Source of the DNA: a virus
Taxonomy: Duplodnaviria; Heunggongvirae; Uroviricota; Caudoviricetes
DNA length: 48,513 nucleotides
Virus record (IMG/VR): IMGVR_UViG_2547132252_000025
Strand: one strand, 5' to 3'
Part shown: piece by piece, positions 48,001 to 48,513 of the stretch
Layout of the letters: each line of letters opens with the position of its first letter
How positions within the stretch are numbered: the stretch's first letter is position 1
Program-made: the position numbers

Positions 48001-48513
48001 GGGTATTTTCAGATAACGGCGGTACCGGTGCTGGCGGTGTATGACCCGACGGTGCAGTTTGAGTTCTGGTTTTCGGAAAAACGCATCACGAACACGGCAC
48101 AGGTGGAAAAATCTGCCCGTTATCTGGGGAGCGGCAGTCAGTGGACTGTCCAGGGAAGCCGGATTAAGCCGGGGACGGATTTCTGGTTTTACGTGCGCAG
48201 CGTCAACCTGGTGGGGAAATCTGCGTTTGTGGAAGTCAGCGGGCAGCCCAGCAATGATGGTGAAGGGTATCTGGAATTTTTCCGGGAAAAAATAGGAAAA
48301 CTGCATCTGGCTCAGGGGCTATGGGAGCTGATAGACAACAGCCAGCTTGCGGATGAGATGGCGGAAGTTATCCCGTCCATCGCCTATACCGAACCAGAAG
48401 TTGCATGGGTAGGTCTGACTGAGAAAGAAGCGAAAGAGAAAGGCATCAGCTATGAAACCGCCACCTTCCCGTGGGCTGCTTCTGGTCGTGCTATCGCTTC
48501 CGACTGCGCAGAC

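What the first reader, a model, noticed from the sequence alone, without database searches (positions are those of the whole stretch)
48340..48513. J joins in frame to an lpd-like fragment at the window end
The J-like frame runs without stop into 147 nt encoding an internal segment of dihydrolipoyl dehydrogenase, at a point where lambda J still has ~280 aa to go. The junction is near 48366. This is either a real rearrangement truncating J and disrupting lpd, or a chimeric or mis-joined contig.
Basis: partly seen in the sequence, partly recalled or inferred. Interest (0 to 1): 0.6.

Follow-up and report, generated by a model that had tools for sequence, protein, structure and literature searches.

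The report
Chimeric contig end, not a gene fusion
The apparent in-frame fusion of the phage tail-tip gene J to a piece of the housekeeping gene lpd is a 150-base chimeric tail at the end of a draft-assembly contig, next to a scaffold gap, so it is an assembly artefact and not a real rearrangement.

Summary
The J reading frame is open from 46855. It matches prophage J up to 48365 (codon 844 of 1158). It then continues in frame into lpdA codons 345-394, with one shared base at the joint.

Exact-protein look-ups traced the window to NCBI draft scaffold GL896790.1 (assembly GCA_000215165.1, 4.8 Mb). There the lpd tail runs one base past the window end and stops at a 20-N scaffold gap.

The contig after the gap repeats the 280 bases of J that precede the junction (window 48085-48365). 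It then reads straight through the junction point into normal J sequence, followed by lom and the tail fibre genes. Merging the two contigs at that overlap gives a 3479-nt J collinear with J of complete O157:H7 genomes.

The junction is absent from 5,426 complete E. coli genomes, the phage records, and the viral, metagenome and species-representative genome collections. The lpd piece is the strain's own O157:H7 allele. There is no homology, IS element or att site at the joint.

Verdict: a chimeric read or clone extended a contig end inside a multi-copy prophage gene. It is not a real feature, and interest is very low.

The parts
45833..47008 (+). N-terminal J ORF of 391 aa, ended by a frameshift
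   Evidence: ORF list. Pfam finds FNIII-A_GpJ and the start of Phage-tail_3. The identical 391-aa product occurs in 805 blocks of the public collection, always followed by the rest of J.
46941..46941 (+). 1-nt deletion relative to intact J, which causes the frameshift
   Evidence: Alignment to the Stx2c prophage of strain 57_142493 shows GTGTGGCC-TACACC against GTGTGGCCGTACACC.
46855..48365 (+). Second J frame, carrying Phage-tail_3, Ig_J and Ig_J_second, up to J codon 844
   Evidence: Open frame. Pfam domains. The last 366 nt are 100% identical to gpJ of many O157:H7 genomes.
48085..48365 (+). J segment that appears a second time at the start of the contig after the scaffold gap
   Evidence: L016 13727-14008 aligns to window 48086-48365 with 280 of 282 columns identical. 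The alignment ends exactly at the junction.
48365..48366 (+). J|lpd junction with 1-nt microhomology (A at 48365) and no inserted bases
   Evidence: Three-way alignment of the window, J (L001) and lpd (L002).
48366..48513 (+). Chimeric tail covering lpdA codons 345-394, the first 45 positions of the dimerisation domain
   Evidence: Together with the shared A and the next scaffold base it forms a 150-nt stretch that exactly matches O157:H7 lpdA. In the scaffold it is followed by 20 N.

Best explanation
The J-lpd joint is an assembly artefact.

The window is one contig of a draft scaffold of an O157:H7-type Stx2c-carrying E. coli (GL896790.1). The assembly broke inside J, which is present in several near-identical prophage copies per genome.

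A chimeric template or read joined a J fragment to an unrelated fragment of the same strain's lpdA. A ligation or mate-pair circularisation chimera made during library construction is the likely source. This read was incorporated at the contig end and added 150 nt of lpd.

The false tail conflicted with the true continuation, so the assembler could not merge this contig with the next one, although the two overlap by about 280 nt. The scaffolder placed them side by side with a nominal 20-N gap.

Shown here: the gap, the duplicated J segment, the normal J continuation, and the absence of the junction elsewhere. Inferred: that the chimera arose in library preparation or read processing. The in-frame joint is a one-in-three coincidence with no biological meaning.
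For: 1. Source identified. The terminase, capsid, portal and I proteins of the window occur on one or two contigs each, the longest in every case being a single 4,803,472-bp NCBI record. Window 34810-48513 is identical to GL896790.1:4485764-4499467.

2. Gap. After the window end there is one more lpd base and then exactly 20 N.

3. Duplicated overlap. The post-gap contig repeats window 48085-48365 at 280/282, with two single-base insertions near its start. It then continues '...GATGGCGGA|GATGAAGACCACC...', as in complete genomes. The overlap ends exactly at the junction.

4. Reconstruction. Joining the contigs at the overlap gives a 3479-nt J, collinear with the 3477-3480-nt J genes at 97.8-99.9% identity. 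The missing Phage_Tail_Tip and Ig_GpJ_C domains lie in the post-gap part.

5. Junction not found elsewhere. No place covers at least 80% of the junction query in 5,426 complete E. coli genomes. None does among the 50,697 phage records. The junction 36-mer is absent from viral, species-representative genome and metagenome contigs. No protein cluster representative spans the joint.

6. The lpd piece occurs exactly once per genome, always inside lpdA. The 150-nt tail is identical to O157:H7 lpdA and differs by one base from K-12. It therefore comes from the same DNA preparation and not from a contaminant.

7. There is no homology beyond one base, and no inserted bases at the joint.

8. J is multi-copy, with 3-10 places per O157 genome for the 514-nt query. 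Further N runs lie in the tail fibre gene just downstream. This region of the assembly is fragmented by repeats.
Against: No reads were available, so coverage and mate information across 48365 were not examined.

I could not retrieve the rest of the assembly to show an intact lpdA elsewhere in it.

J has several paralogues per genome. The post-gap contig could in principle belong to a different J copy than the one in the window. Its right arm does resemble a different prophage than the Stx2c prophage.

The negative protein search is weak. Only cluster representatives are shown, and the scaffold's own fused gene call was not listed either.
Confidence: 0.93

Rival explanations
1. A real illegitimate recombination in the sequenced strain joined prophage J to lpdA. 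This would be an inversion-type or translocation junction. It would truncate J, inactivate lpd, and create an in-frame J'-'Lpd ORF.
For: The sequence as deposited contains the joint with a clean 1-nt microhomology and an open frame. The lpd allele is the strain's own. O157:H7 genomes do undergo large prophage-associated rearrangements. That last point is general knowledge and was not tested here.
Against: lpd is single-copy, so a real junction should let the contig run on for kilobases. Instead it stops after 150 nt at a gap.

The scaffold links this contig to one that repeats the pre-junction J and continues as normal J.

The junction is absent from every collection searched.

In a complete O157:H7 genome, the 100%-matching J copy and lpdA lie 2.6 Mb apart on opposite strands. 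The event would therefore be a very large, asymmetric inversion that also destroys lpd.
Confidence: 0.03
2. A real chimeric DNA molecule was present in a minority of the sample. Examples are a rare rearranged subclone, or aberrant DNA packaged after prophage induction. It would have been sampled by sequencing without representing the main genome.
For: This would also give a short, low-coverage tail at a contig end with the strain's own lpd allele. The data in hand cannot distinguish it from a library artefact.
Against: No feature of the joint points to a phage or recombinase mechanism. There is no cos, att, IS element or repeat, and only 1 nt of homology. lpd is not adjacent to the prophage, whose attachment site in complete genomes is next to sbcB. 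Aberrant excision or in-situ packaging would not reach lpd.
Confidence: 0.03
3. A post-assembly handling error, such as contig-end mis-trimming or manual finishing, pasted an lpd fragment onto the contig end.
For: The tail sits exactly at the contig end beside a nominal 20-N gap.
Against: There is no positive evidence for this. A chimeric read explains the same facts more simply. Either way the feature is not biological.
Confidence: 0.01

Closest known systems
Chimeric reads or clones incorporated at contig ends of draft assemblies
   Same: A short tail about one read long, from an unrelated single-copy locus of the same genome. It sits at a contig end inside a repeated gene. There is no homology at the joint. 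The neighbouring contig overlaps the true sequence but was left unmerged behind a nominal gap.
   Different: Nothing differs in the features I could test. The supporting reads themselves were not seen.
Lambda-family tip attachment protein gpJ of O157:H7 lambdoid prophages
   Same: The window part carries FNIII-A_GpJ, Phage-tail_3, Ig_J and Ig_J_second. The post-gap part carries Phage_Tail_Tip and Ig_GpJ_C. Once the contigs are merged it is collinear with the 1158-1159-aa J proteins.
   Different: It carries a 1-nt frameshift near codon 370, shared with many O157 prophage copies. In the window it appears truncated only because of the contig break.
Prophage-mediated large chromosomal rearrangements in E. 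coli O157:H7
   Same: One partner of the joint is a prophage tail gene.
   Different: By general knowledge, those events arise by homologous recombination between paralogous prophages and give junctions that continue on both sides. Here the partner is lpdA, with 1 nt of homology, and the sequence ends after 150 nt.
Specialised transducing phages formed by aberrant excision
   Same: Phage DNA is joined to host DNA by illegitimate recombination.
   Different: Aberrant excision joins phage DNA to genes flanking the attachment site. That site is next to sbcB in complete genomes, not next to lpd.

Membership tests
Assembly chimera at a contig end | The anomalous joint lies within about one read length of a contig end or scaffold gap | tested here: met
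   The lpd tail is 150 nt long and is followed by 20 N in GL896790.1.
Assembly chimera at a contig end | The neighbouring contig carries the true continuation and overlaps the sequence before the joint | tested here: met
   The post-gap contig repeats window 48085-48365 at 280/282 and reads on into normal J. Merging gives a 3479-nt J collinear with the references.
Assembly chimera at a contig end | The junction is not reproduced in independent genomes | tested here: met
   None of 5,426 complete E. coli genomes holds it. It is absent from the phage, viral, metagenome and species-representative genome collections, and no protein representative spans it.
Assembly chimera at a contig end | Support comes from only one or a few reads, with discordant mates | not testable with these tools
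Real J::lpd rearrangement | The sequence continues into lpd-flanking DNA beyond the joint | tested here: not met
   The contig stops 150 nt into single-copy lpd. The scaffold continues with J, lom and the tail fibre genes.
Real J::lpd rearrangement | There is no intact lpdA elsewhere in the same genome, or there is a second copy if a duplication occurred | not testable with these tools
   The rest of the assembly could not be fetched. In 5,425 complete genomes the segment is single-copy.
Dihydrolipoyl dehydrogenase (Lpd) | FAD/NAD-binding Pyr_redox_2 domain with the redox-active disulphide, plus a complete dimerisation domain | tested here: not met
   Only positions 1-45 of the 110-position Pyr_redox_dim model are present, corresponding to lpd codons 345-394 of 474.
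Lambda gpJ tip attachment protein | The full domain series from FNIII-A through Phage_Tail_Tip to the C-terminal receptor-binding Ig_GpJ_C | tested here: met
   The window holds FNIII-A_GpJ, Phage-tail_3, Ig_J and Ig_J_second. The post-gap contig holds Phage_Tail_Tip and Ig_GpJ_C. The frame is interrupted by the 1-nt deletion near 46941.

The most novel reading that the evidence does not exclude
The sequenced strain, or a subpopulation of it, really carries an illegitimate-recombination joint between prophage gene J and lpdA. This would give an lpd-disrupted Shiga-toxin-producing E. coli with a tail-tip/Lpd hybrid ORF.
Probability: 0.03. Interest if true: 0.25.

Novelty: not a real feature. 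Interest (0 to 1): 0.03.

Why it matters
It matters only for data quality. The deposited scaffold GL896790.1 carries a false J-lpd fusion, which the public gene calls render as a 595-aa hybrid that also reads across the N gap. Unfiltered, it could be mistaken for a gene fusion, a truncated tail-tip protein or a disrupted lpd. Contig ends beside scaffold gaps inside multi-copy prophage genes should be screened before any junction is treated as biology.

Tried and rejected
- Exact 36-mer junction searches in viral, species-representative genome and metagenome contigs found nothing.
- I tried to reach the left flank of the window in the scaffold through a protein near the window start. That protein is too common (11,257 blocks), and the source scaffold was not among the places shown. 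No ORF in the first 10 kb is rare enough for another attempt. Why the window starts exactly at the xis stop codon therefore remains unexplained.
- A literature search for the assembly and scaffold accessions returned nothing.
- A protein search with a 90-aa peptide across the joint gave only half-length matches, either Lpd or J. This is a weak negative, because only cluster representatives are listed.
- I rejected a deletion between the prophage and lpd, because the partners lie on opposite strands 2.6 Mb apart in a complete genome.
- I rejected aberrant excision or transduction, because the attachment site is at sbcB.
- I rejected contamination by a K-12 host, because the lpd allele is O157-type.
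- I rejected repeat-driven mis-overlap between J and lpd, because the two share no similarity beyond 1 nt.

Full report
**What is in the window**

The window is a lambdoid Stx2c prophage of the E. coli O157:H7 type, laid out in prophage order. Positions 1-24000 match phage 2851 from record position 1387 at 99.8%. The genes stx2A and stx2B are present. The late genes run rightwards to J.

One reading frame is open from 46855 to the last base. Window 48000-48365 is 100% identical to gpJ of many complete O157:H7 genomes, and every such match stops at 48365. The remaining bases match lpdA with E = 3e-71. That segment occurs once in each of 5,425 of 5,426 complete genomes.

A three-way alignment of the window, J and lpd places the switch at 48365/48366. 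One base, the A at 48365, is shared. There are no inserted bases and no further similarity between the partners. The shared base is the second position of J codon 844 (of 1158) and of lpd codon 345 (of 474), so the joint is in frame. That has a one-in-three chance of happening at random.

Pfam finds Phage-tail_3, Ig_J and Ig_J_second, followed by the first 45 of the 110 positions of the Lpd dimerisation domain.

- About 314 J codons are missing, not about 280.
- J is already split upstream by a 1-nt deletion near 46941, giving a 391-aa ORF at 45833-47008. The identical 391-aa product is found in 805 blocks of the public collection, always followed by the rest of J.

**Is the junction seen anywhere else?**

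It is not. No complete E. coli genome has a place covering at least 80% of a query that spans the joint, and no phage record does. A 36-mer across the joint is absent from the viral, species-representative genome and metagenome contig collections. A 90-aa peptide across the joint finds only proteins that match one half or the other. That last result is a weak negative, because only cluster representatives are listed.

**Finding the source**

Several late proteins of the window are rare. The terminase, capsid, portal and I sequences occur on one or two contigs each, the longest in every case being a single NCBI record of 4,803,472 bp.

Looking up the I protein returned that record: scaffold GL896790.1 of assembly GCA_000215165.1. 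Window 34810-48513 is identical to the first 13,704 bases of the fetched locus L016.

**What follows the window in the scaffold**

- One more base follows the window end. It is G, the next lpd base.
- A run of exactly 20 N follows, which is a scaffold gap.
- A new contig then begins with the same J sequence as window 48085-48365. The match is 280 of 282 columns, with two single-base insertions within 80 nt of the contig start.
- That contig reads straight through the junction point into '...GATGGCGGA|GATGAAGACCACC...', the normal J sequence of complete genomes.
- The overlap between the two contigs ends exactly at 48365.
- Downstream come the J C-terminal domains Phage_Tail_Tip and Ig_GpJ_C, then lom and the tail fibre genes.

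Joining the two contigs at the overlap gives a 3479-nt J. It is collinear with the 3477-3480-nt J genes of complete O157:H7 genomes at 97.8-99.9% identity.

**Interpretation**

The two contigs overlap by about 280 nt and should have been merged. They were not, because the first carries a 150-nt foreign tail.

That tail is identical to O157:H7 lpdA and differs by one base from K-12 lpd. It therefore comes from the same DNA preparation and not from a contaminant.

The lpd gene is single-copy. A genuine junction would have let the contig run on for kilobases into lpd and yacH. Instead it ends after about one read length, and the scaffolder links it to a J-continuing contig.

J is present at several places per O157 genome, and further N runs sit in the tail fibre gene just downstream. 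This part of the assembly is broken up by repeats.

The simplest account is this:
1. A chimeric read or clone, made by ligation of two unrelated fragments during library construction, was incorporated at a contig end.
2. The false tail blocked merging with the next contig.
3. The scaffolder recorded the pair as neighbours separated by a nominal 20-N gap.

The gap, the duplication and the normal continuation are shown here. The origin of the chimera in library preparation is inferred.

**Rivals**

*A real J::lpd rearrangement.* In a complete O157:H7 genome, the 100%-matching J copy and lpdA lie 2.6 Mb apart on opposite strands. The event would be an inversion-type joint that destroys lpd. It would also have to leave a contig that stops after 150 nt of unique sequence. 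I give it about 3%.

*A real but rare chimeric molecule in the sample.* I cannot distinguish this from a library artefact without reads. Nothing at the joint suggests a phage or recombinase mechanism, though. The attachment site in complete genomes is next to sbcB, not lpd. I give it about 3%.

*Caveat.* J has paralogues. The post-gap contigs match the right arm of a different prophage, the one beside dinI and an MFS transporter gene. They do not match the usual Stx2c prophage right arm. The identity of the overlap alone therefore does not prove that both contigs come from the same J copy. This does not rescue the lpd joint, which still ends at a gap.

**Comparison with known things**

This is the familiar class of chimeric contig ends in draft assemblies. 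It is not a member of the Lpd family in any functional sense, because only 49 whole codons of one domain are present. The J part is an ordinary member of the lambda gpJ family. It is not a specialised-transduction joint and not a homologous inter-prophage rearrangement.

**Verdict**

The feature is not biological. Interest is 0.03.

Decisive confirmation would come from three checks, none of which could be run here:
- mapping the original reads,
- locating the intact lpdA in the rest of the assembly,
- junction PCR.

Noticed in passing
window 19639-21215: The Shiga toxin 2c operon is present: stx2A at 19975-20934 and stx2B at 20946-21215. Both are 100% identical to the Stx2c prophage of strain 57_142493. 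Three tRNA genes (Met-CAT, Arg-TCG, Arg-TCT) lie just upstream at 19639-19882. RefSeq annotates the first of these as tRNA-Ile.
   Followed up: partly
window 46941 (J, 45833-48365): J carries a 1-nt deletion that splits it into a 391-aa ORF and the remainder. The identical 391-aa product is in 805 blocks of the public collection, in O157 prophages with intact L, K and I upstream. It is therefore a real, widespread J pseudogene allele and not a sequencing error of this assembly.
   Followed up: yes
window about 44900-48365 and L016 13726-20681: From about 44900 the window stops resembling the Stx2c prophage. Its I gene is only 93.6% identical, and mismatches cluster at 45000-46500. The post-gap contigs match the right arm of another prophage at 99.4-99.8%: three NleG genes, dinI, and an MFS transporter and mannitol dehydrogenase flank. 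They do not match the usual Stx2c right arm (OspB-like gene, NleG7). The scaffold therefore joins two different prophages. This is either a real hybrid or recombinant, or a repeat-driven mis-assembly.
   Followed up: partly
window 24001-45653: The best complete-genome match of the late region is only 98.6%. Differences fall in clusters at 28500-31000, 32000-35500 and 38000-38500. This is either mosaicism among paralogous prophages or a collapsed-repeat consensus. The terminase, capsid and portal protein sequences are each known from this one scaffold only.
   Followed up: partly
window 44174-44912 (K), around 44465: The K gene (JAB plus NlpC/P60 tail protein) has a 1-nt insertion relative to complete genomes. 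The public gene call is therefore a 99-aa JAB-only fragment. I did not establish whether this is a real frameshift or a sequencing error.
   Followed up: no
window 41754-44119: The L tail gene is split. A P22-like module lies between L and K: an Arc-family gene at 42524-42844 on the minus strand, a second small Arc-family gene, and Ant at 43196-44119. RefSeq annotates the same arrangement, including the split L, in Stx2c prophages of complete O157 genomes, so it is native.
   Followed up: yes
window 1-192: The window starts exactly on the stop codon of a 63-codon minus-strand ORF at the xis position. In phage 2851 this point lies 20 nt inside the 3' end of the convergent integrase gene. The integrase is not in the window. 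I could not retrieve what precedes the window in the scaffold.
   Followed up: partly
L016 15941-16410 (GL896790.1, about 2.2 kb past the window end): More N runs (1, 1 and 439 N) interrupt the side tail fibre gene. This shows that the prophage tail region of the scaffold is fragmented by repeats.
   Followed up: no
window 33991 (portal gene, 32646-35147): The portal ORF is intact (833 aa) in the window. The best-matching complete genome has one G fewer in a G run at this position, and RefSeq annotates its portal gene as frameshifted.
   Followed up: no
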